IMG/VR virus record: IMGVR_UViG_3300008448_000009
Coordinates: 55,282 to 119,281 of that record
Source: a virus
Length of the DNA: 64,000 nt
Strand: one strand, 5' to 3'
The notes under the pieces were generated by a model. That model had not been told where the DNA came from, did not search any database, and saw nothing but the letters and a program-made list of their open reading frames with translations. This document shows, in pieces, positions 49,155 to 64,000 of the stretch (its first letter is position 1; each line of letters begins with the position of its first letter). Both the position numbers and the translations under genes were made by a program.

Positions 49155-49450
49155 ATAAACTTATTTAGAATTATTCTACATAACACAATTTTTGGTATTG
49201 CTGCAATAATCTTAAATAAACTTATTCGGTTTGCTGCTGCAATAATCTTAAATAAACTTATTTAGTTTTGATACGATATGATACGATATGATACGATTAT
49301 TATTCGGGTTCATTCAAATAAACTTATTCGGGTTCGGGTTCGGGTTCATTCGGTTCGGGTTCGGTTCGGGTTCATTCAAATAAACTTATTCGGGTTCATT
49401 CGGTTCGGTTCGGGTTCACGCGTGAGCGCCCGACACAAAAGTGTACATAA
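49155..49450. repeat. non-coding simple-repeat cluster
   Basis: 27-bp direct repeat at 49200 and 49236, GATACGATAT x3, (G)GGTTC runs, five ATAAACTTAT. Confidence 0.85.
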
Positions 49451-49578
49451 ATTGATTTTAAGGCGTTTTAAGGCGTTATTATTATTTAAACCTTATCGAT
49501 ATACCAAAACAATATAAAAGTCCTTTAAAACGCAAAAAAACCGCCTTTTGGGCGGTTTCTTGGTTTAAGTGGTTAAAC

Positions 49579-50463
49579 TTATTTGACCATTACTAAAATT
49601 TCTTTTAGTGCTTTGTCGTTAGTTCTAGCACCTTGCTCTGTAAATAGATAATCACTATTTTCGTGACCTTTGGCAAAGTGGTTAGTATAGTGAGTAATAC
49701 CATTGAATAAACCAAATGCGGTTGCACCACTTTCTTTAAATTCCCACTCAATACATTCTTTCACTTTGTCGATAATAGCTATTGACTGCTTTCCTAAATC
49801 GGCATACTTGGTTAAATCGTAACCGAAAACCGATTGAATATATTTGTCAACTGCTTTTTGGTTGACTTTCACGCCATTTAAACGGATATACATTTCCTCT
49901 AATTTTTCAACTTGAGAAACGCACTTTGTAACATCGGCTAACATTCCCGCAATTTTGCCCTCGTTTCCGTTGGTATTACGAAACTTTGCTTTAAACTCGG
50001 TAAAAGTTTTTTTCATTCCGTTGGTGCAAATAAGTCTATACGTTTCCAAATACAAAGATGTAGCGGTATTTCCGTCATAACCTGTTTGCACGTTTAAAAT
50101 AACGTTGGTTGTATCTTCAACGCCACGCACGTTAGTAAAAGAAACTTTTGCAATAGGGATACTGAAACGAATTTTTTTGCCCTCTTTCATTTCAAAATAG
50201 TTAAGTTTGTCAATATCAAAACCGCTTTGTAAACTTGCATCACAAAACGCCTCGAAAATTGCTTTAGGTTGAGCCGAATTAAAATCTTTGCCCACAATAC
50301 CTAACTGATTTCCGCCCGTTTCTTTAAATAAACCGAAGCCATTTTCGATAGTAAATTTGTCGTCAACGCCCGTATATAACGGCATTTTCACCACGTTAAA
50401 TAATTGATTTTCAATCGTTTGCACCGCTTGGTGACTTTTTGCAATGTTTTCTAAAATGTTCAT
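49579..50463 (-). CDS. DUF932-like protein
   Basis: TGYDG..RLICTNGM..TAFGLFNGITHYTNH. Confidence 0.7.
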   Translation of the reverse strand: MNILENIAKSHQAVQTIENQLFNVVKMPLYTGVDDKFTIENGFGLFKETGGNQLGIVGKDFNSAQPKAIFEAFCDASLQSGFDIDKLNYFEMKEGKKIRFSIPIAKVSFTNVRGVEDTTNVILNVQTGYDGNTATSLYLETYRLICTNGMKKTFTEFKAKFRNTNGNEGKIAGMLADVTKCVSQVEKLEEMYIRLNGVKVNQKAVDKYIQSVFGYDLTKYADLGKQSIAIIDKVKECIEWEFKESGATAFGLFNGITHYTNHFAKGHENSDYLFTEQGARTNDKALKEILVMVK

Positions 50464-50640
50464 TTTTGTAAGAATTTTAGGTTAAAAATTAAATTTTGTT
50501 CACTTTGAACACTGCAAATGTACATAAGTTTATTTAATATCCTAACTTTTTATATAAATTTATTTGCAAAGTTATTAACATCGTATTGTTAATAACTTTT
50601 TATAGATAAATGTTTGGATATATGAAATTAATTTATTATA

Positions 50641-50780
50641 CTACACGCGCACCCACACATCACGCGCATACATACGCGCCCACGCGTTTACACACATACG
50701 CGCACTGGTGCATACGTTACGCGCACCCACACGCGCACTCGTTTTCACATACGTGCATACGTGGTACATATATCGCGCGG
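50641..50780. repeat. alternating purine-pyrimidine (ACGCGC/CACAC) tract
   Basis: Repeated ACGCGCA and CATAC units in a GC-rich non-coding island. Confidence 0.75.
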
Positions 50781-50795
50781 ACCAAACGTATAAGT

Positions 50796-51017
50796 TTATT
50801 TGATATTTGCTTGGTCATCAAGTTCAGCGACTTCAAATTGCACACGTGCCTCGTGGATGAATTGTTCATCGGTCATTGCCAATAAACTATCCTTAACTTC
50901 TTCGTTAAACCAAAATGATAGTTCGTTGGTTTCACTATTCATAAGGTTGTATAAACCTCGTGCCATTGACGTGCCTTGGTTGAGTGATATGGTTCCGACT
51001 TGTCTGATTACTTTCAT
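50796..51017 (-). CDS. small early protein
   Basis: Flanked by ATAAACTTAT at both ends. Confidence 0.6.
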   Translation of the reverse strand: MKVIRQVGTISLNQGTSMARGLYNLMNSETNELSFWFNEEVKDSLLAMTDEQFIHEARVQFEVAELDDQANIK

Positions 51018-51129
51018 ATAAGTTTATTTAGTTTGATATGCGCTCCCGCGGGGCGGGCTTGACACAAATGTGTACATGGGTTAAAGTAAATAAGCCTATC
51101 CATTACAGATAGGCTTATTCGGGTTGTGT

Positions 51130-51399
51130 TTAGTAGTTGTTTTGCTTTAACGTTACTCGATAATTGGAAACGATATATTGTTTGGGTTGTGGTTGTTTAA
51201 CTTCCACGCAACGATGTTTACGCCAATAGCGTTTGGTACTTCTGCAACTGCTACAACTTTCAAATAGAATAACTATAAGAAACAATACGATAGCTATTGC
51301 GTAAGGTCTAAAGATACCGCTAAAGATAGCCATTACTTTGTTGCCACACCATATAAGGAAAGCAACGATTAAAAACTTGTGCCATTTGATTTTTTTCAT
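51130..51399 (-). CDS. small membrane protein
   Basis: Two hydrophobic segments; ATG 51399. Confidence 0.5.
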   Translation of the reverse strand: MKKIKWHKFLIVAFLIWCGNKVMAIFSGIFRPYAIAIVLFLIVILFESCSSCRSTKRYWRKHRCVEVKQPQPKQYIVSNYRVTLKQNNY

Positions 51400-51441
51400 A
51401 TTGAATAAATTTAATTGTTTAATTGGGTTCAAAGATACAAA

Positions 51442-51645: not shown

Positions 51646-51687
51646 AATATCTAATTTTTAAATGTGATGCAAAGATAGTAATATAAT

Positions 51688-52044
51688 TTAATAACACAAA
51701 TTTTTGTGTCTTTTTAATTCAGCTTTCATAAGTCTTTTTTCTCGTATAAGTTTATCTGAAAACAATCCATTCAACACTTGTTGCAATTCTTTGTTTGGTA
51801 TGGTGCAACAATCAAAGTTTGGGTGAAAATGAATAAACTTATTTAGTTGTTCCCAATAGAAACCAAACTCCAACGTCGGTTCACCGCTTTCAATCGTTTC
51901 TGCCGTACCTTTGTCAAACGCTTGGATATATTCCATTAGCTTGGGGATATCTTTGCTTAAATCGATTAATTGTATCGGGTTGCCATGTAACATTTGATAT
52001 ATTTCGGGCAATAAGTGTGGATAGTTTTCGGTATAATAACCCAT
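51688..52044 (-). CDS. hypothetical early protein
   Basis: Motif directly before ATG. Confidence 0.6.
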   Translation of the reverse strand: MGYYTENYPHLLPEIYQMLHGNPIQLIDLSKDIPKLMEYIQAFDKGTAETIESGEPTLEFGFYWEQLNKFIHFHPNFDCCTIPNKELQQVLNGLFSDKLIREKRLMKAELKRHKNLCY

Positions 52045-52122
52045 ATAAGTTTATTTGTTTGGTTTAATGATTTTATCAACCATTGCACCGATTAGTCCTT
52101 GAATGTTTGATTTCATATAAGT

Positions 52123-52263
52123 TTATTCGTTATCTTCTATTAAACAATCTTCACAAGCGTTGCAAGAATAACAATAACTGCAACCGCAACCATTTTCTGT
52201 GTTGCCACAATCACAACAATTAAACATATCATTGCAAGGTCTGTTTGTTCCGTTGGTACACAT
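52123..52263 (-). CDS. 46-aa Cys-rich (metallothionein-like) protein, not in ORF track
   Basis: MCTNGTNRPCNDMFNCCDCGNTENGCGCSYCYSCNACEDCLIEDNE, 11 Cys. Confidence 0.6.
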   Translation of the reverse strand: MCTNGTNRPCNDMFNCCDCGNTENGCGCSYCYSCNACEDCLIEDNE

Positions 52264-52278
52264 AGTAAATAAGTTTAT

Positions 52279-52479
52279 TTAGTTTAAATTCATTTCGTAT
52301 TTGTATAGCACTTCTGCCATTTGTTCGGGCGTTTGTTTGTGTTGTGCAAAGGTTATCCAACTTCTATGAATGTTGATTAATTGTTTACAACGTTCATCAA
52401 TCATATTAGCTTTATCGTATTTGGTATCTTTTAGCTTTTTAGCCAAACATAGTCTGATTTCTTTTTCAACGTTTTCCAT
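52279..52479 (-). CDS. hypothetical early protein
   Basis: 66 aa between motifs. Confidence 0.55.
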   Translation of the reverse strand: MENVEKEIRLCLAKKLKDTKYDKANMIDERCKQLINIHRSWITFAQHKQTPEQMAEVLYKYEMNLN

Positions 52480-52491
52480 AACTAAATAAGT

Positions 52492-52785
52492 TTATTTGGT
52501 TGTTACAAATTTTGAAAAGTCAAGCCAAAATGCTTGGTACATTTGTCCGTTGTTATCTTGAAAAATAACTCTTGGACTGCCACCATAGTTAACCATTAAC
52601 AAAGTAGTTAATTCAGTCCCTATTGGTTGTATTACTTCGGTTGTATTGGTTGTTATATCTAAATCAGCAACCTTGCTAACTGCATACGTTTTAAATTCGG
52701 TAATAGTTGAGCCAACAAAGTTATATGAATTTTGGATAACTTCAACCAATAAGTTGGGCGCAAAAGTTTTTTTAGTTAGTTTCAT
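52492..52785 (-). CDS. hypothetical early protein
   Basis: 97 aa between motifs. Confidence 0.55.
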   Translation of the reverse strand: MKLTKKTFAPNLLVEVIQNSYNFVGSTITEFKTYAVSKVADLDITTNTTEVIQPIGTELTTLLMVNYGGSPRVIFQDNNGQMYQAFWLDFSKFVTTK

Positions 52786-52919
52786 ATAAGTTTATTTAGT
52801 TTACACAAATTGTTGTAAAATCGTTATACGTTTTCAACGTAATTTGTACGAAAGGTTTTTGTTTCAATTCGATTTCAACTTTTTTGTTGTTCTGTTTAAG
52901 ACTGATAAAGTAAGCCATT

Positions 52920-52995
52920 GTGATAAGTTTAATTGGTTTAACGATGCAAAGATATACAAATAAAATAACCTACCAAACAAATGATAGGTTATTTT
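52920..52995 (-). promoter_or_regulatory. repeated early promoter cassette (TTTG -33, TAnnTTTG -7) overlapped by a stem-loop
   Basis: Near-identical copies at about 54930, 57670, 59305; related ones at about 53290, 53780, 55925, 56750, 60140, 61935, 63115. Confidence 0.75.
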
Positions 52996-53030
52996 CTCAA
53001 AAAATTCACTTATACGAAAAGCAAATAAGT

Positions 53031-53288
53031 TTATCTACTACGTTTGTGTCGTTGGTCAAACTTGTAAAGTAGTTCGATGTAAATATGTTCTCTAATACAA
53101 CCAAAATAGTAGTATTTTATTTCGTGCATTATCTTAACACTAACTGCACAAATATTCAACCCTACGGGCGAAATATGTTGAAAATTGCCTTGACCTTTCA
53201 AAGTCAGTTGCATTTTGTTGTTAATGTTGGCTTGACAAAAGTCAGCAAGTTGTTGCTCTGATGCGTTAAATAATTGTTCGTGTAACAT
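53031..53288 (-). CDS. hypothetical early protein
   Basis: Own promoter at 53320. Confidence 0.55.
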   Translation of the reverse strand: MLHEQLFNASEQQLADFCQANINNKMQLTLKGQGNFQHISPVGLNICAVSVKIMHEIKYYYFGCIREHIYIELLYKFDQRHKRSR

Positions 53289-53377
53289 TGTGATAAAGAT
53301 TAATTGGTTAATTCTTCTGCAAAGATAAACAAATAATCTTATCCACCAAACATTTTTTCAATTATTTTCAAATAAAC

Positions 53378-53776
53378 TTATTCAAGACTTTCAGCACGTT
53401 CCACAAGTTCCTCATAAGTAAATAAGTTTAGACGTTCTATCCTTTCTTTTAACCTATCTACGTTATTGGGTGTTACTGCAATAGTATCGTGAATACTTTG
53501 CAAGTGTTTCCATTCTTCGTTTGTCAGTATTCCAACAACTTCGGGTTTAAATATTCCCTCTTGTTGTTCTTCGTTTTCAGACAATACATCAATAATATCT
53601 TTGTATATTCCAAACTTTGGTTCAATCATATTCTTTCCAGCTACACACATTTTTTTATCTTTCGTAAGATACTCACAAGTTTGATTATCTTTGTTAAAAC
53701 CACAAGTGCTTGGGTCTTTCAAATAAGGTGCTATTTGTGAGAGTGCAAACTCTTTTATTTCTTCGGGTGTTTTCAT
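53378..53776 (-). CDS. hypothetical early protein
   Basis: CEY..KMCVAG..LQSIHD; promoter 53806. Confidence 0.6.
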   Translation of the reverse strand: MKTPEEIKEFALSQIAPYLKDPSTCGFNKDNQTCEYLTKDKKMCVAGKNMIEPKFGIYKDIIDVLSENEEQQEGIFKPEVVGILTNEEWKHLQSIHDTIAVTPNNVDRLKERIERLNLFTYEELVERAESLE

Positions 53777-53873
53777 TTTGATATAAGTTTAATTGATTAT
53801 TGAGTGCAAAGATACAACAATATTTGATATATGCAAATTTATTTCGCGCGTAGACGCAATTGTGTACATAAGG

Positions 53874-54119
53874 TTATGTGATTTTGATATAGTCGCCTTT
53901 GGCTAACCATATTTCCATTTCGCCATAAGTTAAGATACTATCCACTTTGCAAGTCATAACCAAATATTGTTTATATTGTGGGTCTTTGTTTGTTTTAAGG
54001 CTCTTGCGTTCAACAATAAAGTTCAGACTTTCAACAACTTGTTGGTATTGATACAACGCTGATTTGCCTTTAAGTTTGGCAACCAACACACCCTCTTTGG
54101 TTCTAAATTCTAATTCCAT
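53874..54119 (-). CDS. hypothetical early protein
   Basis: Motif directly before ATG. Confidence 0.55.
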   Translation of the reverse strand: MELEFRTKEGVLVAKLKGKSALYQYQQVVESLNFIVERKSLKTNKDPQYKQYLVMTCKVDSILTYGEMEIWLAKGDYIKIT

Positions 54120-54125
54120 ATAAGT

Positions 54126-54347
54126 TTATTTGGTTCTCATTTTTACATAGTTTCTAACTCTGTCAGCTATTTCTTCTGATACATCGCCATTCCCAATATT
54201 CGACCTTACTTCGTTGGTTTCACGATTATAAGTGAAACTATAATTAAACCCCGAAAGATTTTTGTCGGGTTGATACGATGCTGAAAGATGCACGATAGGG
54301 TTGTTCTCAAACCTATTGGGTGTAAATGTATATTTGCTCATTACCAT
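54126..54347 (-). CDS. hypothetical early protein
   Basis: Between motifs. Confidence 0.55.
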   Translation of the reverse strand: MVMSKYTFTPNRFENNPIVHLSASYQPDKNLSGFNYSFTYNRETNEVRSNIGNGDVSEEIADRVRNYVKMRTK

Positions 54348-54362
54348 AGTGAATAAGTTTAT

Positions 54363-54659
54363 TTAGTCTACAATACCATTACCATAATACAAGTTGAAAT
54401 GTTTGCCTTTGAAGTCGTCAGACTTCAACCATTCTCTATAACGTTCAGTAACGTTTTTGTCGGCAAATTCGTAATAGTGTCCGTTGCAATAACGCAACTG
54501 ATTATTCTTTTTGTAAAACTCCTCAAATAAACTTATTTCGTTTTCAGCGTGTAGGGTTTCACTATGTTTGTATTCGGGTTTAGTATCTTGGTATCTAAAA
54601 CCACTTTCAGTAACAACTGATTTGTTTGCGGGTGCAAAGTAATTTAATGTAACTTCCAT
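54363..54659 (-). CDS. hypothetical early protein
   Basis: Between motifs. Confidence 0.6.
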   Translation of the reverse strand: MEVTLNYFAPANKSVVTESGFRYQDTKPEYKHSETLHAENEISLFEEFYKKNNQLRYCNGHYYEFADKNVTERYREWLKSDDFKGKHFNLYYGNGIVD

Positions 54660-54671
54660 TTTGATATAAGT

Positions 54672-54929
54672 TTATTTGGTATTTCTGCTTAATACAAATT
54701 TTTCAATAAAATCCCCATTATCCCATTTGGTTTGTAGTATTGAAAATTCGCCTTTGTTCAATGAATTTAAGTACTCGGTACGTGAGGTTTTAACCCCATT
54801 AAGTTTTCCCGAATAACCAATTTGGTTAAACTCTTTTCGTTGTTGTTCAGATAAAAAATGTAGTGGGTGTCCGAAAATTTCCCTAACTTCGCCCATTGAA
54901 GTTTCAAATTGATAGGTTTCAAGTGCCAT
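54672..54929 (-). CDS. hypothetical early protein
   Basis: Promoter cassette upstream. Confidence 0.55.
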   Translation of the reverse strand: MALETYQFETSMGEVREIFGHPLHFLSEQQRKEFNQIGYSGKLNGVKTSRTEYLNSLNKGEFSILQTKWDNGDFIEKFVLSRNTK

Positions 54930-54991
54930 TTTGATATAAGTTTAATTGGTTTCCGTTGCAAATGTATAACAAATAAATTTAACTACCAAAA

Positions 54992-55309
54992 TTATGAGTA
55001 ATAAATTTTAAAATCTTTTGGGTTGTCAATTGACAACTGCATTAACTCTTTTACACGCTCTTGGGTTAAAGTGCTACCAAATTTTAAGTCGCTCCAAAGT
55101 TGGTTAATAGTAAACGAAAACTCCTTTTTATATTTGATATTTTCTAACCAAACACACTTAATTCCACGTTGTCGATTAAACCCTAATTCATTTTGAATTG
55201 TGTGTAGGTCTTGGTTCAACGTATGGTTATCAATTTCGCCACTTAAATATTGTCTAAACTTATCCAATACAAATTTTCGATACTTGATATAGTTTCTATC
55301 TTCTTTCAT
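54992..55309 (-). CDS. hypothetical early protein
   Basis: Motif directly before ATG. Confidence 0.55.
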   Translation of the reverse strand: MKEDRNYIKYRKFVLDKFRQYLSGEIDNHTLNQDLHTIQNELGFNRQRGIKCVWLENIKYKKEFSFTINQLWSDLKFGSTLTQERVKELMQLSIDNPKDFKIYYS

Positions 55310-55319
55310 ATAAGTTTAT

Positions 55320-55922
55320 TTAGTTTGCAAGGCTTGGGTAGTCCATTGGCAACGTTATACGAAACAACACTCTAAAAACATCTTTATCGACTGGCAAACT
55401 CTCGTGTATGAATTGACTATTACCATAATACACTTGGTTAGCATCTAACATAAAGCCTTCATCTAAGTTTATGTGAGAACAATCGCCACCCTCTTTGGCA
55501 TCTGCATCAAAGTTCCCAATCCAACCTTTACAAGCTGAATAGTTAGAAGCTATCAACATTCCACCATTGGGATTTGCATAAGACAATGCGTGTTCTTGGC
55601 TATTGAGTTTAACACCATTTTCACCAACTTTCCAACCATTACCGCCACTATTTCCCCAACTTGATACACTTGGTAAAAAGTTTCCGTCAATGTGTGGTGC
55701 GCCACGTCTTAAGGTCTTGTCTTTCTTGACAAACTTGCCGTGAACAGTTAGATAAGCCGTTCCAATTCGGTTAGGTAGATTTTTAACCATTTGCTCAACT
55801 GCATCGATAAACTCGTTAGGTAGCGTTGATAAATCCGATAGGTCAAAAGGTAGCATTGATACTTCGCCTTTGTGATAAGGTAGTTCAATAGCGTTCAATG
55901 GTTTTGCATAACTTGTTAACAT
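55320..55922 (-). CDS. 2OG-Fe(II) dioxygenase-like protein
   Basis: PHIDG (HxD)...IHESLP...RVLFRI. Confidence 0.6.
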   Translation of the reverse strand: MLTSYAKPLNAIELPYHKGEVSMLPFDLSDLSTLPNEFIDAVEQMVKNLPNRIGTAYLTVHGKFVKKDKTLRRGAPHIDGNFLPSVSSWGNSGGNGWKVGENGVKLNSQEHALSYANPNGGMLIASNYSACKGWIGNFDADAKEGGDCSHINLDEGFMLDANQVYYGNSQFIHESLPVDKDVFRVLFRITLPMDYPSLAN

Positions 55923-56121
55923 AATAAATAAGTTTAATTGGTTTCTAGGACAAAGATAAAAAGAATAAATTTAACTACCAAACATTTTAACAAAAAAAAA
56001 GCGTGGGTTTATCAAGTCCACGCTTTCCAACATTAATGTTTAACCAATTATCACTTACAAAATGTGATTTCTTTAAGGTTGCAAAGGTACAACATTTATT
56101 CTATATATAACAAAAAAGTTA

Positions 56122-56349
56122 TTAACATTTTTCTAACATCGCTTTTAGTTCCTCGTAACTAAGTTTATTTGTTATATCGTCATTGGTACATATCGCCCAA
56201 ATGCTACCATTGAAAACCAACGGCATATATTCGTTCGTTGTACTTGCCAAACAAAAATAACCTTTAGCTTTGATAAGGTTAACTATTTCAGTACGTTGTT
56301 CATTGGTACAAAAAATACCATTCGGTAAACCATCGCCTTTATTAAACAT
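56122..56349 (-). CDS. hypothetical early protein
   Basis: Motif directly before ATG. Confidence 0.55.
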   Translation of the reverse strand: MFNKGDGLPNGIFCTNEQRTEIVNLIKAKGYFCLASTTNEYMPLVFNGSIWAICTNDDITNKLSYEELKAMLEKC

Positions 56350-56355
56350 ATAAGT

Positions 56356-56532
56356 TTATTTGATTGGGTTATCTCTACGCCACTTTCTAATTGCATCGGT
56401 CATTGAATAAAAGAAAAATCTTACTCCTTGAATTTCAACAACGCCACTACGAAACTTATAAGCCGTAACGCCATTCCTAACTTTTTTCTCTGCTACGATT
56501 GGTGTAGCATCTAAATACATTGGATAACTCAT
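56356..56532 (-). CDS. 58-aa hypothetical protein (not in ORF track)
   Basis: MSYPMYLDATP...; stop inside motif. Confidence 0.5.
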   Translation of the reverse strand: MSYPMYLDATPIVAEKKVRNGVTAYKFRSGVVEIQGVRFFFYSMTDAIRKWRRDNPIK

Positions 56533-56747: not shown

Positions 56748-56838
56748 AAGAATATAAGTTTAATTGGTTAGTGGTGCAAATGTAAAAAGAAAAATCCACA
56801 CTACCAAAAATAATGTGGATTTTTTTTTTCATATAAGT

Positions 56839-57279
56839 TTATTCAGTTATTTCTTTAAAGACAAACCTTTGTGGTGGTGTATCTTCATCTAAATAAACCG
56901 CTTCCAAATAAACTTGTTCGTAAGTCAATCCATTATAACACTTTTCTTGTGTGTTTAAATGAATAGATGCAAACAAACTATCAGTAGCTTCTTTAACACT
57001 CATCATATGTTTAAAGTTCTTGTCAATGGTCTGCAACTGCCCATAAGGGTTTTCGCCATTGTAACGTTTTCCAGCTTCGATGTCTTGGGTATGGTTGCAA
57101 AAAGTTGATGCGTGATAACCTATTACACTATCATCTGCAACACGTTTGTACGCTACAACGTATTGAAATGGTTTTTGTTGGTTTTCTTCAAAGTTTTTAC
57201 CCATTGCTTCCATTAACGCACCAACAACTTTTTTGGTTTCTTCGGGTGTTGGTCTTTGGTTTTCTTGTTCTGTATTCAT
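56839..57279 (-). CDS. hypothetical early protein
   Basis: 146 aa between motifs. Confidence 0.6.
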   Translation of the reverse strand: MNTEQENQRPTPEETKKVVGALMEAMGKNFEENQQKPFQYVVAYKRVADDSVIGYHASTFCNHTQDIEAGKRYNGENPYGQLQTIDKNFKHMMSVKEATDSLFASIHLNTQEKCYNGLTYEQVYLEAVYLDEDTPPQRFVFKEITE

Positions 57280-57290
57280 AACGTATAAGT

Positions 57291-57668
57291 TTATTTAATT
57301 AAATGTATTAATGTATCTATTCCACTTGCAACAACAACTCCGTTTACTTTGAATGTAATGTAACCCACTACAACCACGTTAGGCGCACCATAATTGTTTG
57401 AATTGTCTATGGTATAACCATAACCGATTGCGGTTATTGAATCGCCTTTATTTACGTCTAAACTTATATACGATTGTCGTATGTAAGTAGTCGTGTTTTC
57501 TTTGGCATTGTAATACCAAAATTCGGGTGAATTGCCCTCGATAAAAACTTCAAGTCTTTTGGTTTCTTCTACGATAGTAGTTTCTTCTTTGGTGCAAGAA
57601 CTTAATAACCCGATAAGTAATAATAAACAAACTAATACGATTGCTTTGATAACTAATAATTTTTTCAT
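57291..57668 (-). CDS. putative lipoprotein
   Basis: Hydrophobic leader ending LLSSC followed by TKEE. Confidence 0.65.
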   Translation of the reverse strand: MKKLLVIKAIVLVCLLLLIGLLSSCTKEETTIVEETKRLEVFIEGNSPEFWYYNAKENTTTYIRQSYISLDVNKGDSITAIGYGYTIDNSNNYGAPNVVVVGYITFKVNGVVVASGIDTLIHLIK

Positions 57669-58005
57669 TTTGATATAAGTTTAATTGGTTTAACGATGCA
57701 AAGATATAAACAAATTTATTAACTACCAAATATTTTAATAAAAAAAAAAGAGAGTGGATGCACACACTCTCTTTTTGGCTAGCTATTGTTTACCACAATT
57801 ATGTGGTCTCAGTCTTATGTTAATTGATAGAGTATGAATAATAGGTCGAGTTGACCACCTAAAGGTTTCTCTACTTAACAACTATTGAATAAACTTATTC
57901 AAGTTGCATTAACAAGTCCTACATTGCCGACAAGCAAGGAGTCTATATGCAAACCTTTAGGGCGAAAAACACAACATGATATATTTTGATTGAAAACGAA
58001 TAAGT

Positions 58006-58524
58006 TTATTCATCATCGCTTTGATTGTTATAGTAATTTACAGACTTCACTTCTTTACGCAAAAATGGTTTTAAATCTTTAATGATTTTAATTTTTGCTT
58101 GGGTTGGAAATTTATGCACCAACAATTTTTCAAGCACCTCTAAAATAGGTGTGTTGGTTGTTGTATCATCAAATTTGAAACGTGCATCAATGCTCCAATC
58201 TTTTGGTACACTGCCGTGATTACGTTCACTAAGTTTGGCTCGTTTTAAACCACGTTCAATACGAATGATAGGTGTTTGATACACATCAACTTCATCATCG
58301 TACCAATCGATTTCATCAAAACCAACACGCATTGATAATAGTTTTTTGGTTTTGATGGATTTCCAAAACTGCTCAACTTCGTTTCTAAGTTTATCTGAAT
58401 TTGCATATAGTTGTGATTTTCTACTACTATAAGCATAATCGCTACTTACTTCAACACTAATAGTGTTATCGCTATTTCTGCCTAAGTTTATTTGTAGACA
58501 ATCTTTAGTGAAATTTGAATTCAT
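58006..58524 (-). CDS. hypothetical early protein
   Basis: 172 aa; promoter 58554. Confidence 0.6.
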   Translation of the reverse strand: MNSNFTKDCLQINLGRNSDNTISVEVSSDYAYSSRKSQLYANSDKLRNEVEQFWKSIKTKKLLSMRVGFDEIDWYDDEVDVYQTPIIRIERGLKRAKLSERNHGSVPKDWSIDARFKFDDTTTNTPILEVLEKLLVHKFPTQAKIKIIKDLKPFLRKEVKSVNYYNNQSDDE

Positions 58525-58572: not shown

Positions 58573-58779
58573 TTAATATGCAAACTTTTTAAAGAAAAAA
58601 TTTTCTTGTGGTTCTACTATTGGACTTTCAGTACGTTCAACGTGGTTAGTTAATCGTTTCCACTTGTTTAAAAAATAATTACCCAACGCTACATCTTCTT
58701 CTTTTAGCGTTTCTTTGGCAAAGATTTCTTTCACTCTGCTTTCGCACATTTTAGCTTCTAATTCTTTTGAAATTTCCAT
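58573..58779 (-). CDS. hypothetical early protein
   Basis: Promoter 58809. Confidence 0.55.
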   Translation of the reverse strand: MEISKELEAKMCESRVKEIFAKETLKEEDVALGNYFLNKWKRLTNHVERTESPIVEPQENFFFKKFAY

Positions 58780-58913
58780 AATGGTTAAGTTTATTTGGGT
58801 TTATGGTGCAAATGTAAAACAAATAAATTAAACTACCAAACATTTTAACAAAAAAAAAAATAAGGTACTAACTCGTCAGTCAGTACCCTATCATTGAAAG
58901 CATATAAACTTAT

Positions 58914-59303: not shown

Positions 59304-59370
59304 TTGATATAAGTTTAATTGGTTTAACGATGCAAAGATAATCAAATAAATTTAACTACCAAACTTTTTT

Positions 59371-59511
59371 TTAAATAATTTCAGTAGGGTCTAACACTAC
59401 TTCGCCCTCGATAGTAAAGTCAGCGCCACAATCGTCACAACATAACATTGTATCAGGAAAATCAAAATCTTCACGTATATTGGTTCCTATGCAAATTGGA
59501 CAAGTTTCCAT
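59371..59511 (-). CDS. 46-aa zinc-ribbon protein (not in ORF track)
   Basis: METCPIC...CCDDCG; motif directly before ATG. Confidence 0.55.
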   Translation of the reverse strand: METCPICIGTNIREDFDFPDTMLCCDDCGADFTIEGEVVLDPTEII

Positions 59512-59521
59512 ATAAGTTTAT

Positions 59522-59785
59522 TTAGTTTGTATAATATTGAAATGGTTTTTGTTCGCCCTCGTGAGTGTACCAAATTGTATGCAACACTTTTTTATTTTTA
59601 ACTTGACCCTCTAACGTAACGCTATCGGGATTAAGTTTATCGGGTTGACTAATTAGTTCACGATAAAACATAAGTGCCAACTCATAATCAACAAAAGCAA
59701 TATTGATTTTAAGGTTTTTGGTTCTTACAATAAACTTATCGTATATTCCCAAATTTTCCGATGGTTTCATTTTTTTGGTTAACAT
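59522..59785 (-). CDS. hypothetical early protein
   Basis: Between motifs. Confidence 0.55.
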   Translation of the reverse strand: MLTKKMKPSENLGIYDKFIVRTKNLKINIAFVDYELALMFYRELISQPDKLNPDSVTLEGQVKNKKVLHTIWYTHEGEQKPFQYYTN

Positions 59786-59791
59786 ATAAGT

Positions 59792-60136
59792 TTATTTAAT
59801 TTGGTTAAACTCTAATATTCCTACTATACAACTATTGGTATAAAACGAATTGCGTATGCAAGTTTTGTCAAACGCATAAATTTCGTGCCACGTATTGTCG
59901 TGTCTATACTTAACAAGGTACAACTTCATAAACTGCTTAAATGGAATAATCATTCCCATAAGCATATAATTACCTTTGCCACTATTGGCTTGGATATTAT
60001 GAAATAATGTATCTTTGTCTAAACGTGAAAGTTTTTGTCCGTTGGCAAGTGCTTGGAAATACTTATAAGCCATTGACCCTAAAATACTATCCAAAGTGCC
60101 ACGTTCATTAAATGGATAAGGTTGTGTGATTTTCAT
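59792..60136 (-). CDS. hypothetical early protein
   Basis: Promoter 60167. Confidence 0.55.
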   Translation of the reverse strand: MKITQPYPFNERGTLDSILGSMAYKYFQALANGQKLSRLDKDTLFHNIQANSGKGNYMLMGMIIPFKQFMKLYLVKYRHDNTWHEIYAFDKTCIRNSFYTNSCIVGILEFNQIK

Positions 60137-60250
60137 TGTGATATAAGTTTAATTGGTTTTCGAGTGCAAATATATACAAACATTTGAATAAAAAAAATTT
60201 TTTTTAAACTTTTTTTTGTTTTATCTTTGTACCCAATTAAATAAACTTAT

Positions 60251-60460
60251 ATGGTTACACTACACCCTACGGACTATGTGATATACGATAGAGCCAACGA
60301 CCACGTTATACAATTTGAAAGCGATGGTGCTATTGTTATCTTTGGCGACAAAGCTGAAGCTGAAGAAGATTGTCGAGGAAACGAAGAAGTTATCCCTTGC
60401 ACCGAACTTCCGTTGCACCACCAAGAAACTCTTAAACAACAAATAGCAAAACAATTATGA
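60251..60460 (+). CDS. hypothetical early protein (divergent)
   Basis: TATCTTTG at 60223 and ATAAACTTAT-ATG on plus strand. Confidence 0.65.
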   Translation: MVTLHPTDYVIYDRANDHVIQFESDGAIVIFGDKAEAEEDCRGNEEVIPCTELPLHHQETLKQQIAKQL

Positions 60461-60868: not shown

Positions 60869-61229
60869 AACCTGAACTGGCAGCTTCCCTGTTCAGGGCG
60901 CATAGCGTTTGCAACCGCTACACTTGTTCAACTTCTAGGTGACACTAACAAGATGCCTCTTGTACAGGTAGATATTACTTTACTCCGAACCAATCATCGA
61001 AACCCGTTCTTAAACAACTCTAGTTGTTGAACCATTTAAACTTATGCGTTAGACCTACCGAACCTACTGGAAACTCAATCTAACTGTGGACACAAAAGTG
61101 TACATAAGTTTATGTAATAACCCAATCCCTTCCCTATTGGTATGTAACTTGCGTTTATATTATCACATATTTTCTGTTGCAAAGATAAGGTGAATTTTTC
61201 AATCCACCAAATCTTTTACAACTTTTTTT

Positions 61230-61925: not shown

Positions 61926-62027
61926 TGTTTAATTGTTTTAATTGGTTTAATCTTTTGCAAATGTAAATATAAAAAAATAATCTACCAAATAAATGATAGA
62001 TTATTTTTAAATTATTTTTAGATAAGT

Positions 62028-62672
62028 TTATTCACCCTCTTTGTAAACATAACTTCTGAAAAACAAAGTAACTTTTAAAGTGTTACCTTTGGTTTCAATT
62101 TCAGCACCATTGTCATTGGTATTCCAATTTTCATCTTGTCCGTCAATCAACTCACCCAATACTTCGGGTTCGTATTTATCCCAATAATCACTTATCTTTT
62201 TAGCTATGCTTTCTTCGAGTTCTTCGTGTCGGTCAGTTTTGATAAAATCAACTTTGTAGTTGAAATTTGCATCATTACCCCAATCAACATTTATGTTGCT
62301 AACGAATAAGTTTATGTAATTTATTTCTTCTTCGGTCATTTCAATAAATTCATCAAACTCCTCAAATTCTTCGTATTCTTCGGTTGAAGATTTTGAATAA
62401 TCAAATCCGTCTTGTTCATCGTTAAGATAAACATAAACATTCCCACGTTCACCCATATAGTGTCCGTCAGAATTTACATAAAATTCTACATTGTCATAGA
62501 TTTTGTTTTCAAAGTAATCTTCAATTTCTTTGCACTCGATTAACTCACCCTCTTTATCTAAAATGTTAAGGTTAGTTTCGTTCATACTATCGCCACCACA
62601 ATCGAACTCATAGTCGATATGGTCTACTCCGTTTTCTTTCCATAATTGGATAATTTTTTCTTTTTCTGACAT
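62028..62672 (-). CDS. acidic DUF6878-like protein
   Basis: FDCGGDSM motif; family assignment from memory. Confidence 0.5.
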   Translation of the reverse strand: MSEKEKIIQLWKENGVDHIDYEFDCGGDSMNETNLNILDKEGELIECKEIEDYFENKIYDNVEFYVNSDGHYMGERGNVYVYLNDEQDGFDYSKSSTEEYEEFEEFDEFIEMTEEEINYINLFVSNINVDWGNDANFNYKVDFIKTDRHEELEESIAKKISDYWDKYEPEVLGELIDGQDENWNTNDNGAEIETKGNTLKVTLFFRSYVYKEGE

Positions 62673-62686
62673 AAGTTTATTTAATT

Positions 62687-63103
62687 TTAATTGGTTACTT
62701 GTTCTTCTTCTTGTTTAAGTTTATCCAATAAGTCGGTTGCGAATTGTGTCGCTATTGGATTTTCAACATCTTTAACTCCGTTATGTATCCAACTCGGAAG
62801 TGTTAAATGTTTCAGATAATCTTCAAGTGTTGGTACAAACTTCATTCTAAAATCTTCTGCAACGTGCAACATCGCAATATCAATCGTATCAACTCGTTTT
62901 CCATTTGAATTGATAAGGTTGTACCCAAAAATTTTAGGTATAATGTTGTAACAAAACCATACGTTATGCGTTACAAGTCGTGATGAATTGTTATTCATAC
63001 ACGCTTTCGGACTATCAATAAGTTCGTGTATTGCTAAATAATCTTCTACTTTGCCACCCCAACGCTTTACTGAACTTTGAGAGTGAATTTGTGCGTTTGC
63101 CAT
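62687..63103 (-). CDS. DUF6915-like His-rich protein
   Basis: HSQSSVKRWGG..DYLAIHELIDS..H..HVAEDF..PTLEDYL. Confidence 0.6.
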   Translation of the reverse strand: MANAQIHSQSSVKRWGGKVEDYLAIHELIDSPKACMNNNSSRLVTHNVWFCYNIIPKIFGYNLINSNGKRVDTIDIAMLHVAEDFRMKFVPTLEDYLKHLTLPSWIHNGVKDVENPIATQFATDLLDKLKQEEEQVTN

Positions 63104-63202
63104 AATATAATTGTTTTAATTGGTTCGGCAAATGTATAAATAAAAAAATAATCTACCAAACAAATGATAGATTATTTTTAAATTATTTTTGGATAAGTTT
63201 AT

Positions 63203-63469
63203 TTAGTCCCAAACTCTTGAAACTGATTGACTAAATGGATTGTACTCCACTTGTTGTCCCATTACCCAATTACCTTGTTCCACTTGCAAACCTCGATGTT
63301 CATTTGAGAAATCGCCATTGGGTTTTTCGTGTCGTAAGATAGTAGTTTCTTTCACTTTGATTGGTGCGAAATCTTTAACGATGTTATCGTTATCCATATC
63401 GAATTTACCAACCAACGTATGTTGGTGTATTCCCTCACCTAACAAAATTGTTTTTCTTGTTTGTAACAT
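63203..63469 (-). CDS. small His-motif protein
   Basis: GEGIHQH..HE..EH..QVEYNP. Confidence 0.55.
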   Translation of the reverse strand: MLQTRKTILLGEGIHQHTLVGKFDMDNDNIVKDFAPIKVKETTILRHEKPNGDFSNEHRGLQVEQGNWVMGQQVEYNPFSQSVSRVWD

Positions 63470-63534
63470 AAGATTATTGTTTAATTGATTATTATTTTGC
63501 AAATCTACGATATTAATTTATATCTACCAAATTT

Positions 63535-63813
63535 TTATTTAACTTTTTTTGAAACTGCTATTTGTTCTTGGCTAAACTTATCACTTGCATATAAAGTTAT
63601 TTGTTGTCTATTGTTATAAGCTGGGTGTTGTCTATGCCTGAATTGGTGAATAACCTTATCTGCTTTTTTATAGCTGCCCATATATTGCCACGCCTCACCA
63701 TTGTGAAGAGCAACTTTGGGTTCTTCAATCCCCTCGTTAATTGGGTGTTGCCCCAATCGTTCCCACATATCAATCCATTCGGGAGTTTCTGCTTCTATTA
63801 ATACAAATTCCAT
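63535..63813 (-). CDS. hypothetical early protein
   Basis: EAWQYMGS..HQFRHRQHP; motif before ATG. Confidence 0.6.
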   Translation of the reverse strand: MEFVLIEAETPEWIDMWERLGQHPINEGIEEPKVALHNGEAWQYMGSYKKADKVIHQFRHRQHPAYNNRQQITLYASDKFSQEQIAVSKKVK

Positions 63814-63819
63814 ATAAGT

Positions 63820-64000
63820 TTATTCTTTTAACCAATGCGTTACAATTTGGTTGCTCACGTTGAAGTGGCTTTTATCCTTTCCGTTGGCGTCAACATTTAT
63901 AGTATAGGTTGCATCAAGTCTATGGGTATTGCCCATTGTTGTTTTTGTCTTAACAAGATACTTGCCACCAACCTTTGGTTTCTCAATAGTAATATCAATC
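63820..64000 (-). CDS. 5'-truncated hypothetical protein
   Basis: Frame open to window edge, stop inside motif. Confidence 0.45.
   Translation of the reverse strand, partial: IDITIEKPKVGGKYLVKTKTTMGNTHRLDATYTINVDANGKDKSHFNVSNQIVTHWLKE

What the first reader, a model, noticed from the sequence alone, without database searches (positions are those of the whole stretch)
49155..63823. More than 35 copies of the dyad ATAA-AC-TTAT tile the early region and mark gene junctions
By eye there are about 38 exact ATAAACTTAT/ATAAGTTTAT copies in 14.7 kb (e.g. 49155, 49216, 49252, 49318, 49380, 50524, 50790, 51018, 52045, 52117, 52269, 52486, 52786, 53025, 54120, 54353, 54666, 55310, 56350, 56833, 57285, 58000, 59512, 59786, 60241, 61104, 62022, 62671, 63193, 63814). 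About 8 TTAAACTTAT variants occur in promoters. I noticed only one copy (46408) in the first 48 kb. Most copies overlap or abut a stop codon and/or the next ATG, and the orientation flips with the divergent gene at 60251. Others lie inside ORFs (51746, 51833, 54527, 59730, 62306), in reverse orientation (53372, 58904) or in non-coding repeats, so translation initiation alone does not explain them. It is an inverted repeat around an asymmetric 2-bp core. Hypotheses: sites for a dimeric protein coating or silencing first-expressed DNA; crossover sites of an integron-like gene-cassette array; or an RNA processing signal.
Basis: partly seen in the sequence, partly recalled or inferred. Interest (0 to 1): 0.85.

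Follow-up and report, generated by a model that had tools for sequence, protein, structure and literature searches.

The report
Shared stop-start junction joining phage gene cassettes
A ten-letter sequence sits at almost every boundary between small genes in one fast-changing block of a giant freshwater phage, where it ends one gene, starts the next, and marks where related phages have swapped genes.

Summary
ATAAACTTAT occurs 39 times in the window (0.79 expected). In the 119-kb record 38 of 41 copies lie in the last 15 kb. The record is a fragment of a ~360-kb T4-like jumbo phage of Bacteroidota.

The motif is the universal intercistronic junction of an array of orphan genes. 14 of 15 promoter-less minus-strand cistrons carry it 0-6 nt before ATG. 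20 copies also supply or abut the upstream gene's TAA. A T-form (TTAAACTTAT) lies in the 5' leader of 8 promoter-proximal genes.

Two independent relatives (a 362-kb viral contig and an 8-kb metagenome contig) share the motif and this layout. Other lineages use different repeated leaders. Gene content turns over massively (27 of 40 ORFs have no homolog in the 362-kb relative). Homology breakpoints fall on the motif (9 of 26, p=5e-4), including clean cassette indels.

Best reading: a Shine-Dalgarno-free stop/restart linker that doubles as a homologous-recombination seam. It is a PeSL-like or start-associated-sequence-like system. It is not an integron.

Six antisense copies and a conserved non-coding cluster of 5-7 inverted copies remain unexplained and keep a trans-acting reader possible.

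This scan has reported junction motifs of this kind in other phages. Novelty: new variant of a known kind.

The parts
49155..63823 (-). Array of about 37-40 small, mostly orphan ORFs (minus strand) joined by the motif; a hyperplastic block of a T4-like jumbo phage
   Evidence: Pfam/PHROGs empty except DUF932, DUF6915 and a weak Lar hit
49155..49164 (+). Exact copy, non-coding cluster copy 1 (inverted relative to the array)
49216..49225 (+). Exact copy, non-coding cluster copy 2
49252..49261 (+). Exact copy, non-coding cluster copy 3
49318..49327 (+). Exact copy, non-coding cluster copy 4
49380..49389 (+). Exact copy, non-coding cluster copy 5
50524..50533 (-). Exact copy 1 nt upstream of the TACATTTG -7 box of the DUF932 gene promoter
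   Evidence: box at -59; conserved in G006
50790..50799 (-). Exact copy; its TAA ends ORF 50796..51017; no ATG follows
51018..51027 (-). Exact copy abutting the ATG of ORF 50796..51017
51746..51755 (-). Exact copy, sense, inside ORF 51688..52044
51833..51842 (+). Exact copy, antisense, inside ORF 51688..52044
52045..52054 (-). Junction: its TAA ends the mini-ORF 52051..52116; abuts the ATG of 51688..52044
52117..52126 (-). Junction: its TAA ends 52123..52263; abuts the ATG of the 21-codon mini-ORF
52269..52278 (-). Junction: abutting TAA ends 52279..52479; ATG 5 nt downstream (52123..52263)
52486..52495 (-). Junction: its TAA ends 52492..52785; ATG 6 nt downstream (52279..52479)
52786..52795 (-). 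Junction: abutting TAA ends 52796..52918; abuts the ATG of 52492..52785
52923..52932 (-). T-form TTAAACTTAT in the 5' leader, 4 nt before the ATG of 52796..52918; TAnnTTTG box at -36
53025..53034 (-). Exact copy; its TAA ends 53031..53288; followed by the hairpin 52995-52962 and a promoter
53372..53381 (+). Exact copy, antisense, overlapping the stop of 53378..53776
53783..53792 (-). T-form in the 5' leader, 6 nt before the ATG of 53378..53776
54120..54129 (-). Junction: its TAA ends 54126..54347; abuts the ATG of 53874..54119; cassette-indel boundary against G006
54353..54362 (-). Junction: abutting TAA ends 54363..54659; ATG 5 nt downstream; cassette-indel boundary against G006
54527..54536 (+). 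Exact copy, antisense, inside 54363..54659; not conserved in G006
54666..54675 (-). Junction: its TAA ends 54672..54929; ATG 6 nt downstream; G006 has a promoter module with the T-form here
54936..54945 (-). T-form in the 5' leader, 6 nt before the ATG of 54672..54929
55310..55319 (-). Junction: abutting TAA ends 55320..55922; abuts the ATG of 54992..55309
55928..55937 (-). T-form in the 5' leader, 5 nt before the ATG of 55320..55922
56350..56359 (-). Junction: its TAA ends 56356..56532; abuts the ATG of 56122..56349; homology breakpoint
56754..56763 (-). T-form in the 5' leader, 6 nt before the ATG of 56529..56747; homology breakpoint
56833..56842 (-). Exact copy; its TAA ends 56839..57279; followed by the hairpin 56824-56790 and a promoter
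57285..57294 (-). Junction: its TAA ends 57291..57668; ATG 5 nt downstream (56839..57279)
57675..57684 (-). T-form in the 5' leader, 6 nt before the ATG of 57291..57668
57889..57898 (+). Exact copy, antisense, intergenic; 15-nt inverted repeat with the copy at 58000; conserved in G006
58000..58009 (-). Exact copy; its TAA ends 58006..58524; no ATG follows
58785..58794 (-). Variant ATAAACTTAA, 5 nt before the ATG of 58573..58779
58904..58913 (+). Exact copy, antisense, abutting the stop of the ORF ending at 58914, just before the terminator hairpin 58892-58859; conserved in G006
59309..59318 (-). T-form in the 5' leader, 5 nt before the ATG at 59303
59512..59521 (-). Junction: abutting TAA ends 59522..59785; abuts the ATG of 59371..59511
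59730..59739 (+). Exact copy, antisense, inside 59522..59785
59786..59795 (-). Junction: its TAA ends 59792..60136; abuts the ATG of 59522..59785
60143..60152 (-). T-form in the 5' leader, 6 nt before the ATG of 59792..60136
60241..60250 (+). Exact copy abutting the ATG of the only plus-strand cassette, 60251..60460
61104..61113 (-). Exact copy directly upstream of a GTACACTTTTG box, in a non-coding stretch
62022..62031 (-). Exact copy; its TAA ends 62028..62672; followed by an intergenic promoter module
62306..62315 (-). Exact copy, sense, inside 62028..62672
62671..62680 (-). Junction overlapping the start (ATAAACTT-ATG) of 62028..62672; the upstream ORF 62687..63103 stops 9 nt before it
63193..63202 (-). 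Exact copy; abutting TAA ends 63203..63502; followed by an intergenic promoter module
63814..63823 (-). Junction: its TAA ends the ORF that runs off the window; abuts the ATG of 63535..63813

Best explanation
ATAAACTTAT is the core of a roughly 19-nt element, AAAcYAA[A/T]TAAACTTAT(ATG). It is the standard joint between gene cassettes in one hyperplastic block of a T4-like jumbo phage whose host lineage does not use Shine-Dalgarno sites. On the mRNA it closes the upstream reading frame with TAA (inside the motif or just before it). It places the next ATG 0-6 nt downstream in an A/U-rich, weakly structured context, so that promoter-less cistrons are translated by coupling or re-initiation. This translational step is inferred. 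The same core, as TTAAACTTAT, ends the 5' leader of the repeated terminator/promoter modules. Because every cassette and every promoter module ends in the same 9-19 identical bases, the phage's general recombination can delete, insert, replace and reorder cassettes and promoter modules at these seams without breaking expression. This step is shown by comparison with relatives. No dedicated recombinase or motif-specific reader is required by this model, but one is not excluded.
For: 1. Region-specific. 24 of 37 called ORFs in the block have the motif family within 20 nt upstream of the ATG, against 0 of 115 ORFs elsewhere in the record.
2. Strict split by context. 14 of 15 promoter-less minus-strand cistrons carry the exact A-form; the 15th overlaps its upstream neighbour. 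All 8 T-form genes have a TAnnTTTG box at -36 to -38.
3. 20 sense copies end an upstream open frame of at least 40 codons: TAA inside the motif 13 times, abutting it 6 times, 9 nt before it once.
4. The orientation follows the gene, including the single plus-strand cassette at 60251.
5. The layout is reproduced in two independent genomes. G006 has 48 copies, 29 of them in 250-270 kb. Metagenome contig L462 has 35 motif-family copies in 8 kb, with the A-form at 6 of 9 box-less ORFs and the T-form at 8 of 11 box ORFs.
6. Seams. 9 of 26 G000/G006 homology-block boundaries lie within 10 nt of a motif site, against 9.6% of positions (binomial p=4.6e-4).
7. Clean indels. Gene 54126..54347 is a cassette indel between copies 54120 and 54353. 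In L462 the four cistrons between 52786 and 52045 are missing, with one motif copy left.
8. At 54666 the same downstream gene and spacer (atcaaaATG) follow a gene end in G000 and a promoter module in G006, which puts the crossover inside TAAACTTAT.
9. Turnover. 27 of 40 block ORFs have no tblastn hit anywhere in G006, although the core is 84-96% identical in DNA. 12 of 40 recur in G003, in scrambled order.
10. The predicted unpaired probability of -20..+4 is 0.54 (internal) and 0.61 (leader), against 0.45 at random positions.
Against: 1. 22 of 38 exact copies are not within 6 nt of the start of an ORF of at least 40 aa. Six are antisense; two of these (57889, 58904) are conserved in G006.
2. 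A non-coding cluster of 5 inverted copies (49155-49389) is conserved, with 7 copies, in L462. A purely cis junction does not predict this.
3. Orthologous motif positions are 97% identical (194 of 200), against 87.5% elsewhere. This fits a sequence-specific reader as well as recombinational homogenisation.
4. In the abutting class, position -3 is U. In F. johnsoniae, U at -3 is significantly less frequent in the most efficiently translated genes than in the least (PMC6847099, passages read).
5. Seven promoter-proximal genes of the block, and all genes outside it, do without the motif. The adjacent small-gene region of G006 (268-286 kb) also lacks it. It is therefore not needed for translation as such.
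6. The enrichment of breakpoints at the motif is confounded with selection for intact genes.
7. There are no RNA or ribosome data.
Confidence: 0.55

Rival explanations
1. Stoperator-like DNA operator. A phage-encoded protein binds the asymmetric site on DNA at junctions, leaders and promoters and silences or times transcription of the whole block. The non-coding cluster acts as a high-affinity site array.
For: - Exact conservation beyond the neutral level (17 of 20 orthologous sites wholly identical).
- Restriction to one block.
- Orientation correlated with transcription.
- T-form sites lie in the initial transcribed region, 14 nt downstream of the -7 box. Two copies sit directly upstream of -7-like boxes (50524, 61104).
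- An inverted pair flanks the DUF932-type promoter in G006 (253049/253076).
- The non-coding cluster of 5-7 copies with the extended dyad AAATAA-GT-TTATTT is conserved.
- L5-type stoperators have just these properties (PMC9283540, passages read).
Against: - No HTH or other DNA-binding domain was found in any block ORF.
- The phage is T4-like and has no recognised repressor.
- 14 of 15 promoter-less cistrons carry the site at a fixed 0-6 nt from the ATG, and the motif doubles as the stop codon. An operator does not need this.
- The A/T switch at position 1 follows the need for a TAA stop, not any binding logic.
- G006 lacks the non-coding cluster yet keeps the motif.
Confidence: 0.18
2. RNA-level regulon signal. 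The motif on early mRNAs is the target of a trans-acting factor. This could be a RegA-like translational repressor or a RegB-like endoribonuclease. It could also be a multivalent antisense RNA made from the inverted-copy cluster at 49155-49389, which would pair with 12 nt of each junction. Any of these would shut the block off together.
For: - Sense bias and position on the initiation region.
- Exact conservation.
- The conserved cluster of inverted copies lies just downstream of a GTACACTTTTG box and a GC-rich hairpin shared with L462.
- Conserved antisense copies lie in 3' untranslated stretches next to terminators (57889, 58904).
- T4 precedent of RegA and RegB acting on early initiation regions (recalled; PMC3014915 seen only in a search listing).
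Against: - No match to Pfam RegA (PF01818) or RegB (PF10715) in G000, G003, G005 or the complete G006.
- No clear Bacteroidota promoter (-33 TTG plus TAnnTTTG) in front of the cluster (read).
- The cluster is absent from G006.
- The predicted duplex is 12 A/U-rich pairs, which is weak.
- No RNA run was available.
Confidence: 0.15
3. Integron-like array. The motif is the crossover site of a site-specific tyrosine recombinase that excises and inserts cassettes.
For: - Same-orientation, largely promoter-less cassettes with clean indels at the motif.
- G006 encodes a 268-aa Xer/integron-integrase-like tyrosine recombinase at 280469-281275.
Against: - The recombinase lies about 12 kb past the array, with motif-less genes between.
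- It scores 158.6 bits against the 265-bit cut-off of TIGR02249.
- It is absent from 10 of 11 related records searched, some with arrays of their own.
- Its homologs occur in 14 records with 0-5 motif copies and no repeat arrays nearby.
- The site is 10-19 nt, with only a 4+4 dyad, and has no attC-like 57-141-nt fold.
Confidence: 0.03
4. Phage-specific promoter whose transcripts start at or near the ATG (leaderless or short-leader mRNAs), one per cassette.
For: A conserved roughly 19-nt element ends 0-6 nt before the ATG. Earlier scan notes propose this for a crAss-like phage (e1-5991716).
Against: - The T-form sits inside leaders already served by host-type promoters.
- Copies at gene ends have no gene after them (6 copies).
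- No T7-type RNA polymerase match in G000 or G006, but that search had no positive control.
- Late genes use a different upstream box, TATTTATW (25 of 115 genes).
Confidence: 0.04

Closest known systems
PeSL (promoter-early stem-loop) cassettes of T4-type phages (PMC2839356 passages read; PMC4122927 abstract read)
   Same: The setting is the same: a T4-like phage (TerL, portal and capsid PHROG hits) with a hyperplastic block of orphan genes. It has repeated composite stem-loop plus host-type early promoter modules. Indels, replacements and reordering of orphan genes have breakpoints in the repeated elements.
   Different: Here the most frequent seam is not the promoter/terminator module. It is a 10-19-nt promoter-less, hairpin-less intercistronic joint inside operons, which also provides the stop and start context. 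The promoter consensus is Bacteroidota TAnnTTTG, not sigma-70. Mini-circles were not tested.
Start-associated sequences (SAS) of Cluster K mycobacteriophages (PMC3203893 passages read; function still unverified according to PMC12699233 passages)
   Same: Both are short asymmetric sequences with symmetric outer parts. Both lie a few nt upstream of ATG, almost always in one orientation, and are restricted to the non-structural part of the genome. Both sometimes contain the upstream stop codon, and rare inverted copies are not tied to starts.
   Different: SAS contains the Shine-Dalgarno core AGGAG, complementary to the 16S rRNA 3' end. This motif has no such core and no complementarity above chance to 15 Flavobacteriales 16S rRNAs. 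The phage family and host phylum are different. Here the cassette-swap breakpoints are documented.
Stoperators and operators of Cluster A mycobacteriophages (PMC9283540 passages read)
   Same: Many copies of an asymmetric site lie in short intergenic spaces and at promoters, with orientation correlated with transcription.
   Different: No repressor candidate was found. The phage is T4-like rather than a temperate siphovirus. The site here has a fixed register with stop and start codons.
Boundary or linker sequences at module junctions of lambdoid phages
   Same: Short conserved sequences at gene boundaries where mosaic blocks change.
   Different: Those are few per genome. Here there are 38 exact copies in 15 kb, with near-total use at internal junctions.
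Integron attC/IntI cassette arrays (general knowledge)
   Same: An array of small, largely promoter-less cassettes in one orientation, with gain and loss at a repeated site.
   Different: There is no attC structure, no adjacent IntI, and no co-occurrence of the recombinase with the motif.

Membership tests
PeSL cassettes | Located in a hyperplastic region of a T4-type phage, among orphan genes | tested here: met
   TerL phrog_2, portal and major head hits. Best named relatives are T4-like, at most 31% identity. Of 37 block ORFs scanned in Pfam, 34 have no match; the others hit DUF932, DUF6915 and a weak Lar hit. 27 of 40 have no homolog in G006.
PeSL cassettes | Composite of a host-type early promoter and an adjacent stem-loop terminator | tested here: not met
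   This holds for the repeated promoter modules (TAnnTTTG at -36 to -38; hairpins 52995-52962 and 56824-56790). The 10-mer at 14 internal junctions has neither a box within 75 nt nor a hairpin.
PeSL cassettes | Recombination between copies causes indels and replacements between close relatives | tested here: met
   9 of 26 block boundaries lie within 10 nt of a site, p=4.6e-4. Cassette indels at 54120/54353 and 52786/52045.
PeSL cassettes | Formation of mini-circles by recombination of flanking copies | not testable with these tools
   This needs inverse PCR or raw-read 'go back' joints.
Start-associated sequences (SAS) | Asymmetric conserved sequence a few nt upstream of start codons, one orientation, non-structural region only | tested here: met
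   24 of 37 against 0 of 115 ORFs; spacing -2 to +6 nt; 38 of 41 copies in the last 15 kb.
Start-associated sequences (SAS) | Contains a Shine-Dalgarno core able to pair with the 16S rRNA 3' end | tested here: not met
   The longest Watson-Crick run against 15 Flavobacteriales 16S rRNAs is 5-6 nt (core) or 6-7 nt (extended), no better than shuffled motifs. The host itself is unknown.
Stoperators | Asymmetric sites in short intergenic spaces and at promoters, oriented with transcription | tested here: met
   27 of 33 copies outside the cluster are in gene sense.
Stoperators | Bound by a phage-encoded repressor that blocks initiation and elongation | not testable with these tools
   There is no DNA-binding domain among the block ORFs. 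Binding needs an experiment.
Integron | IntI-type integrase adjacent to the array with attI and Pc | tested here: not met
   None in G000. The G006 recombinase is 12 kb away and below the TIGR02249 and NF011946 cut-offs. It is absent from 10 of 11 related records searched.
Integron | attC sites: imperfect inverted repeats of about 57-141 nt that fold as single strands | tested here: not met
   The conserved element is about 19 nt, with only a 4+4 dyad.
T4 RegA/RegB regulon | Presence of a RegA or RegB homolog | tested here: not met
   No match to PF01818 or PF10715 at E<=1 in G000, G003, G005 or G006. Fast-evolving analogues are not excluded.

The most novel reading that the evidence does not exclude
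The motif defines a regulon. The conserved non-coding cluster of 5-7 inverted copies (49155-49389, extended dyad AAATAAGTTTATTT) would be transcribed from the GTACACTTTTG box plus GC hairpin. That would give a multivalent antisense RNA pairing with 12 nt of every junction and leader, so that translation of some 24 orphan genes is switched off, or marked for cleavage, all at once. An equivalent reading is that the cluster is a sink for a motif-specific protein. This would be a Shine-Dalgarno-independent counterpart of the T4 RegA/RegB early shut-off, built from repeats.
Probability: 0.12. Interest if true: 0.8.

Novelty: new variant of a known kind. Interest (0 to 1): 0.45.

Why it matters
Bacteroidota ribosomes ignore Shine-Dalgarno sites, and it is not known how internal cistrons of their operons are started. 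This array uses one exact junction at 14 of 15 promoter-less cistrons, with natural variants: the T-form, ATAAATTTAT in relatives, and inverted copies. That gives a ready-made reporter series for coupling and re-initiation in Flavobacterium.

It also extends the PeSL idea. In a jumbo T4-like phage the recombination seams are not only promoter/terminator modules but also the intercistronic joints themselves. This explains how two phages with 84-96% identical core DNA can differ in about two thirds of the genes in this block.

In practice the motif is a marker for finding the accessory (probably host-takeover or anti-defence) cassette pool of this phage group in metagenomes.

Tried and rejected
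- Exact 15-mer scan of IMG/VR. Longer patterns then found G006 and L462.
- Megablast of the block against named phages: no match. The only nucleotide hit elsewhere was a thymidylate synthase of Flavobacterium phages.
- Sigma-70 promoter scan: 64 hits against 72 in shuffles, so uninformative for this host type.
- RegA, RegB, ribosomal protein S21: no match in G000, G003, G005 or G006.
- T7-type RNA polymerase: no match, but nothing rang in the controls either, so inconclusive.
- Serine recombinase PF00239: none.
- Tyrosine recombinase lead: followed and rejected.
- Pairing with 16S rRNA: rejected. The caveat is that the host is unknown. The first genome-contig scan, with the 424-aa ORF at window 16187-17461 (its DNA partly matched a phage thymidylate synthase), found nothing. 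The second, with Gmd, gave Bacteroidota genomes.
- PHROGs on 10 block ORFs: nothing.
- Sequencing runs: no RNA holder listed.
- Read laying on contigs of 4 DNA runs. Many joints touch motif or promoter-module copies (for example 56749>57680, 53282>57675, 52137>62667, 51030>59505). Their sides are 21-32 letters at 88% likeness, which the tool warns often comes from repeats or other organisms, so I do not count them. One X2 contig (record 18) carries unlike sequence in place of 50489-51011, with the right edge at the 51018 copy.
- Literature search for the 10-mer itself: 83 papers hold one of the three strings searched; the 15 listed are all incidental, and none concerns phage or Bacteroidota regulation.
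- Supplementary files of the papers were not opened. SAS site tables in the supplements of PMC3203893 and PMC12699233 could refine that comparison.

Full report
OBSERVATION. ATAAACTTAT occurs 39 times in the window on both strands, against 0.79 expected from dinucleotide shuffles (largest shuffle value 4). 38 copies lie in 49155-63823 and one at 46408. The window is the right-hand 64 kb of a single 119,281-bp virus record. In that record 38 of 41 copies fall in the last 14.9 kb. One-mismatch variants are also concentrated there, 35 against 29 in the other ~104 kb.

CONTEXT. Large ORFs elsewhere in the window match phage terminase large subunit, portal and major head families. The terminase is T4-like but at most 31% identical to any named phage. 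IMG/VR holds many relatives with 79-87% identical terminase. CheckV rates long ones of 95-306 kb as only 28-86% complete. One of them, G006 (362,018 bp, rated 100% complete), is collinear with this record over its 159.5-260.6 kb at 84-96% DNA identity. The record is therefore about a third of a ~360-kb jumbo phage, and the motif block runs off its end. In G006 the block spans about 252-268 kb: 29 of 48 copies lie in 250-270 kb, and the reversed-pattern control finds 10 genome-wide. The host is unknown. The TAnnTTTG boxes, the 33% G+C and the Gmd relatives point to Bacteroidota. The DNA is found in freshwater metagenomes.

ANATOMY. The block holds 37-40 small ORFs, nearly all on the minus strand.
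- In Pfam, only DUF932, DUF6915 and a sub-threshold Lar hit appear among 37 ORFs scanned. PHROGs gives nothing for the 10 ORFs scanned.
- 24 of 37 called ORFs have the motif family ([A/T]TAAACTTA[T/A]) within 20 nt upstream of the ATG, against 0 of 115 ORFs in the rest of the record.
- The two forms split cleanly. The exact A-form precedes 15 called ORFs, 14 of which have no TAnnTTTG box within 75 nt, so they are internal cistrons. Of 15 promoter-less minus-strand cistrons, 14 carry it, and the remaining one overlaps its upstream neighbour.
- The T-form TTAAACTTAT precedes 8 ORFs. All 8 have a box starting at -36 to -38, which puts the motif in the 5' leader.
- The ATG lies 0 nt (abutting), 4-6 nt, or -2 nt (overlapping) from the motif end.
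- 20 sense copies end an upstream open frame of at least 40 codons. The TAA lies inside the motif 13 times, abuts it 6 times, and lies 9 nt before it once.
- The information profile extends the element to about 19 nt, AAAcYAA[A/T]TAAACTTATATg. It is asymmetric and the same in G000 and G006.
- Terminator-like hairpins directly precede several promoter boxes (52995-52962, 56824-56790). The promoter units are therefore composite terminator/promoter modules.

COPIES THAT ARE NOT STARTS. The 38 exact copies in the block fall into these classes.
- 16 precede an ORF of at least 40 aa. This count includes 51018, whose ORF 50796..51017 my gene caller had replaced with a plus-strand ORF.
- 1 precedes a 21-codon mini-ORF bounded by two copies.
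- 6 sit at a gene's 3' end with no gene directly after (50790, 53025, 56833, 58000, 62022, 63193). In four of these (53025, 56833, 62022, 63193) a promoter module follows the copy directly, so these modules are bracketed by TAAACTTAT on both sides.
- 2 lie directly upstream of -7-like boxes (50524, 61104).
- 2 are sense copies inside ORFs.
- 6 are antisense.
- 5 form an inverted cluster in 270 bp of non-coding tandem repeats, between the DUF932 terminator and the next promoters.

RELATIVES.
- G006 shares the exact motif and the same A-form/T-form logic.
- A third, independent 8-kb metagenome contig (L462) has 35 motif-family copies. The A-form precedes 6 of 9 box-less ORFs and the T-form precedes 8 of 11 box ORFs. 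It also has the inverted non-coding cluster, with 7 copies.
- At orthologous positions in G000 and G006, 194 of 200 motif bases are identical, against 87.5% of other aligned bases. 17 of 20 sites are wholly identical. The in-ORF antisense copy 54527 is not conserved, while the intergenic antisense copies 57889 and 58904 are.
- Five other relatives with 80-86% identical terminase have 0-4 copies each.
- In the syntenic block of G003 the equivalent positions carry the palindromic A[A/T]TAAATT[T/A]A, and most genes have their own promoter.
- Across 71 loci of at least 9 kb around the DUF6915 gene, each lineage has its own repeated promoter-plus-leader module. Examples are TCTAATCAAA before 21 of 49 ORFs, and TTGTAAACTT or TTAAATTTAT inside promoters.
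- The exact sequence is therefore lineage-specific and homogenised within a genome.

RECOMBINATION SEAMS.
- 27 of 40 block ORFs have no tblastn hit anywhere in G006. 12 of 40 recur in the G003 block, in scrambled order.
- Of 26 G000/G006 homology-block boundaries in the block, 9 lie within 10 nt of a motif site. 9.6% of positions do so (binomial p=4.6e-4).
- Gene 54126..54347 is present in G000 between copies 54120 and 54353. In G006 the flanking genes share a single copy.
- In L462 the four cistrons between copies 52786 and 52045 are missing and one copy is left.
- At 54666 the same downstream gene and spacer (atcaaaATG) follow a gene end plus A-form in G000, and a promoter module plus T-form in G006. 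The crossover therefore lies within TAAACTTAT.
- This enrichment is partly confounded with selection for intact genes.

TESTS OF READERS.
- No RegA, RegB or S21 family match.
- No T7-type polymerase match, but without a positive control.
- No serine recombinase.
- G006 has one Xer-like tyrosine recombinase, 12 kb beyond the array. It is absent from 10 of 11 related records searched. 14 records with its homologs have 0-5 motif copies and no repeat arrays nearby.
- The motif shows no complementarity above shuffled controls to 15 Flavobacteriales 16S rRNAs.
- The junction is predicted to be slightly more open than random positions: 0.54 and 0.61 against 0.45, with a per-site sd of 0.13.

MECHANISM. 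What is shown:
- the element is the standard stop/start joint of the array and the end of its leaders;
- it is conserved beyond the neutral level;
- relatives change gene content at it.

What is inferred:
- on mRNA it couples termination to re-initiation in a host that ignores Shine-Dalgarno sites (PMC6847099, passages);
- its identity at every boundary lets general recombination shuffle cassettes and promoter modules.

Points against a purely cis role:
- the conserved inverted cluster;
- the conserved antisense copies, including a 15-nt inverted repeat between 58000 and 57889 that pairs in the centroid fold (z=-4.4);
- U at -3 in the abutting class.

These points keep a DNA operator (stoperator-like) or an RNA-level regulator as live rivals.

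COMPARISON AND NOVELTY. The closest known things are three. PeSL cassettes of T4-type phages share the setting and the evolutionary role. Start-associated sequences of Cluster K mycobacteriophages share the placement, asymmetry and restriction, but those carry a Shine-Dalgarno core. Stoperators share the site distribution. The membership tests show it is not a PeSL proper at internal junctions, not an SAS in its rRNA-pairing feature, and not an integron. This scan has already reported conserved junction motifs at cassette-swap points in other phages. This case adds a Shine-Dalgarno-free, very dense example in a Bacteroidota jumbo phage. I rate it a new variant of a known kind.

Noticed in passing
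window 1-48000 and the upstream part of the record: A second upstream signature, TATTTATW (often TATTTATAATAAAA), lies within 40 nt of the ATG of 25 of 115 ORFs outside the block, against 2 of 37 inside it. It looks like a late-promoter box, by analogy with the T4 late promoter TATAAATA (recalled).
   Followed up: partly
window 49446, 51075, 60689, 61103 (minus strand): Four copies of GTACAC[A/T]TTTGTG. At least two are followed by a GC-rich hairpin-like stretch. One heads the inverted motif cluster and is conserved in L462, and one follows the motif copy at 61104. This may be a promoter variant or an RNA 5' element.
   Followed up: partly
window 50640-50790: A GC-rich non-coding stretch of ACGCGC/GTGCGC-type repeats in an otherwise 33% G+C region. 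It is partly conserved in G006 and L462. G003 has ACACGTTACA-type repeats (12 copies) at the matching place.
   Followed up: no
window 57735-58020 (minus strand): An intergenic 286-nt stretch folds well beyond shuffles (MFE -73.3 kcal/mol, z=-4.4). The centroid pairs a 15-nt inverted repeat made of a sense and an antisense motif copy. Both copies are conserved in G006.
   Followed up: partly
G006:C1:280469-281275 (locus L311 1468-2274, minus): A 268-aa Xer/XerA-like tyrosine recombinase in a T4-like jumbo phage. Homologs at 57-85% identity occur in 33 other viral contigs. Its role is unknown, and it is not linked to the motif.
   Followed up: yes
whole record G000: The 119-kb record is collinear with 159.5-260.6 kb of a 362-kb relative. 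It is therefore a fragment of a ~360-kb genome, and the motif block is cut by the contig end.
   Followed up: yes
window 52051-52116 (minus): A 21-codon mini-ORF is bounded on both sides by exact motif copies. It starts at the ATG after copy 52117 and stops at the TAA inside copy 52045. It is either a micro-cassette or a relic.
   Followed up: no
window 59371-59511 (minus): A 46-aa ORF with a sub-threshold match to the restriction-alleviation protein Lar (20 bits against a cut-off of 28.6). It is shared with G003 and G006.
   Followed up: no
G000:C1:46840-47772 (outside the window): The phage Gmd (GDP-mannose dehydratase) has its closest bacterial match in a Saprospiraceae MAG (62% identity), followed by Acidobacteriota MAGs (57-60%) and then mixed phyla at 48-52%. 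It gives no clear host signal.
   Followed up: no
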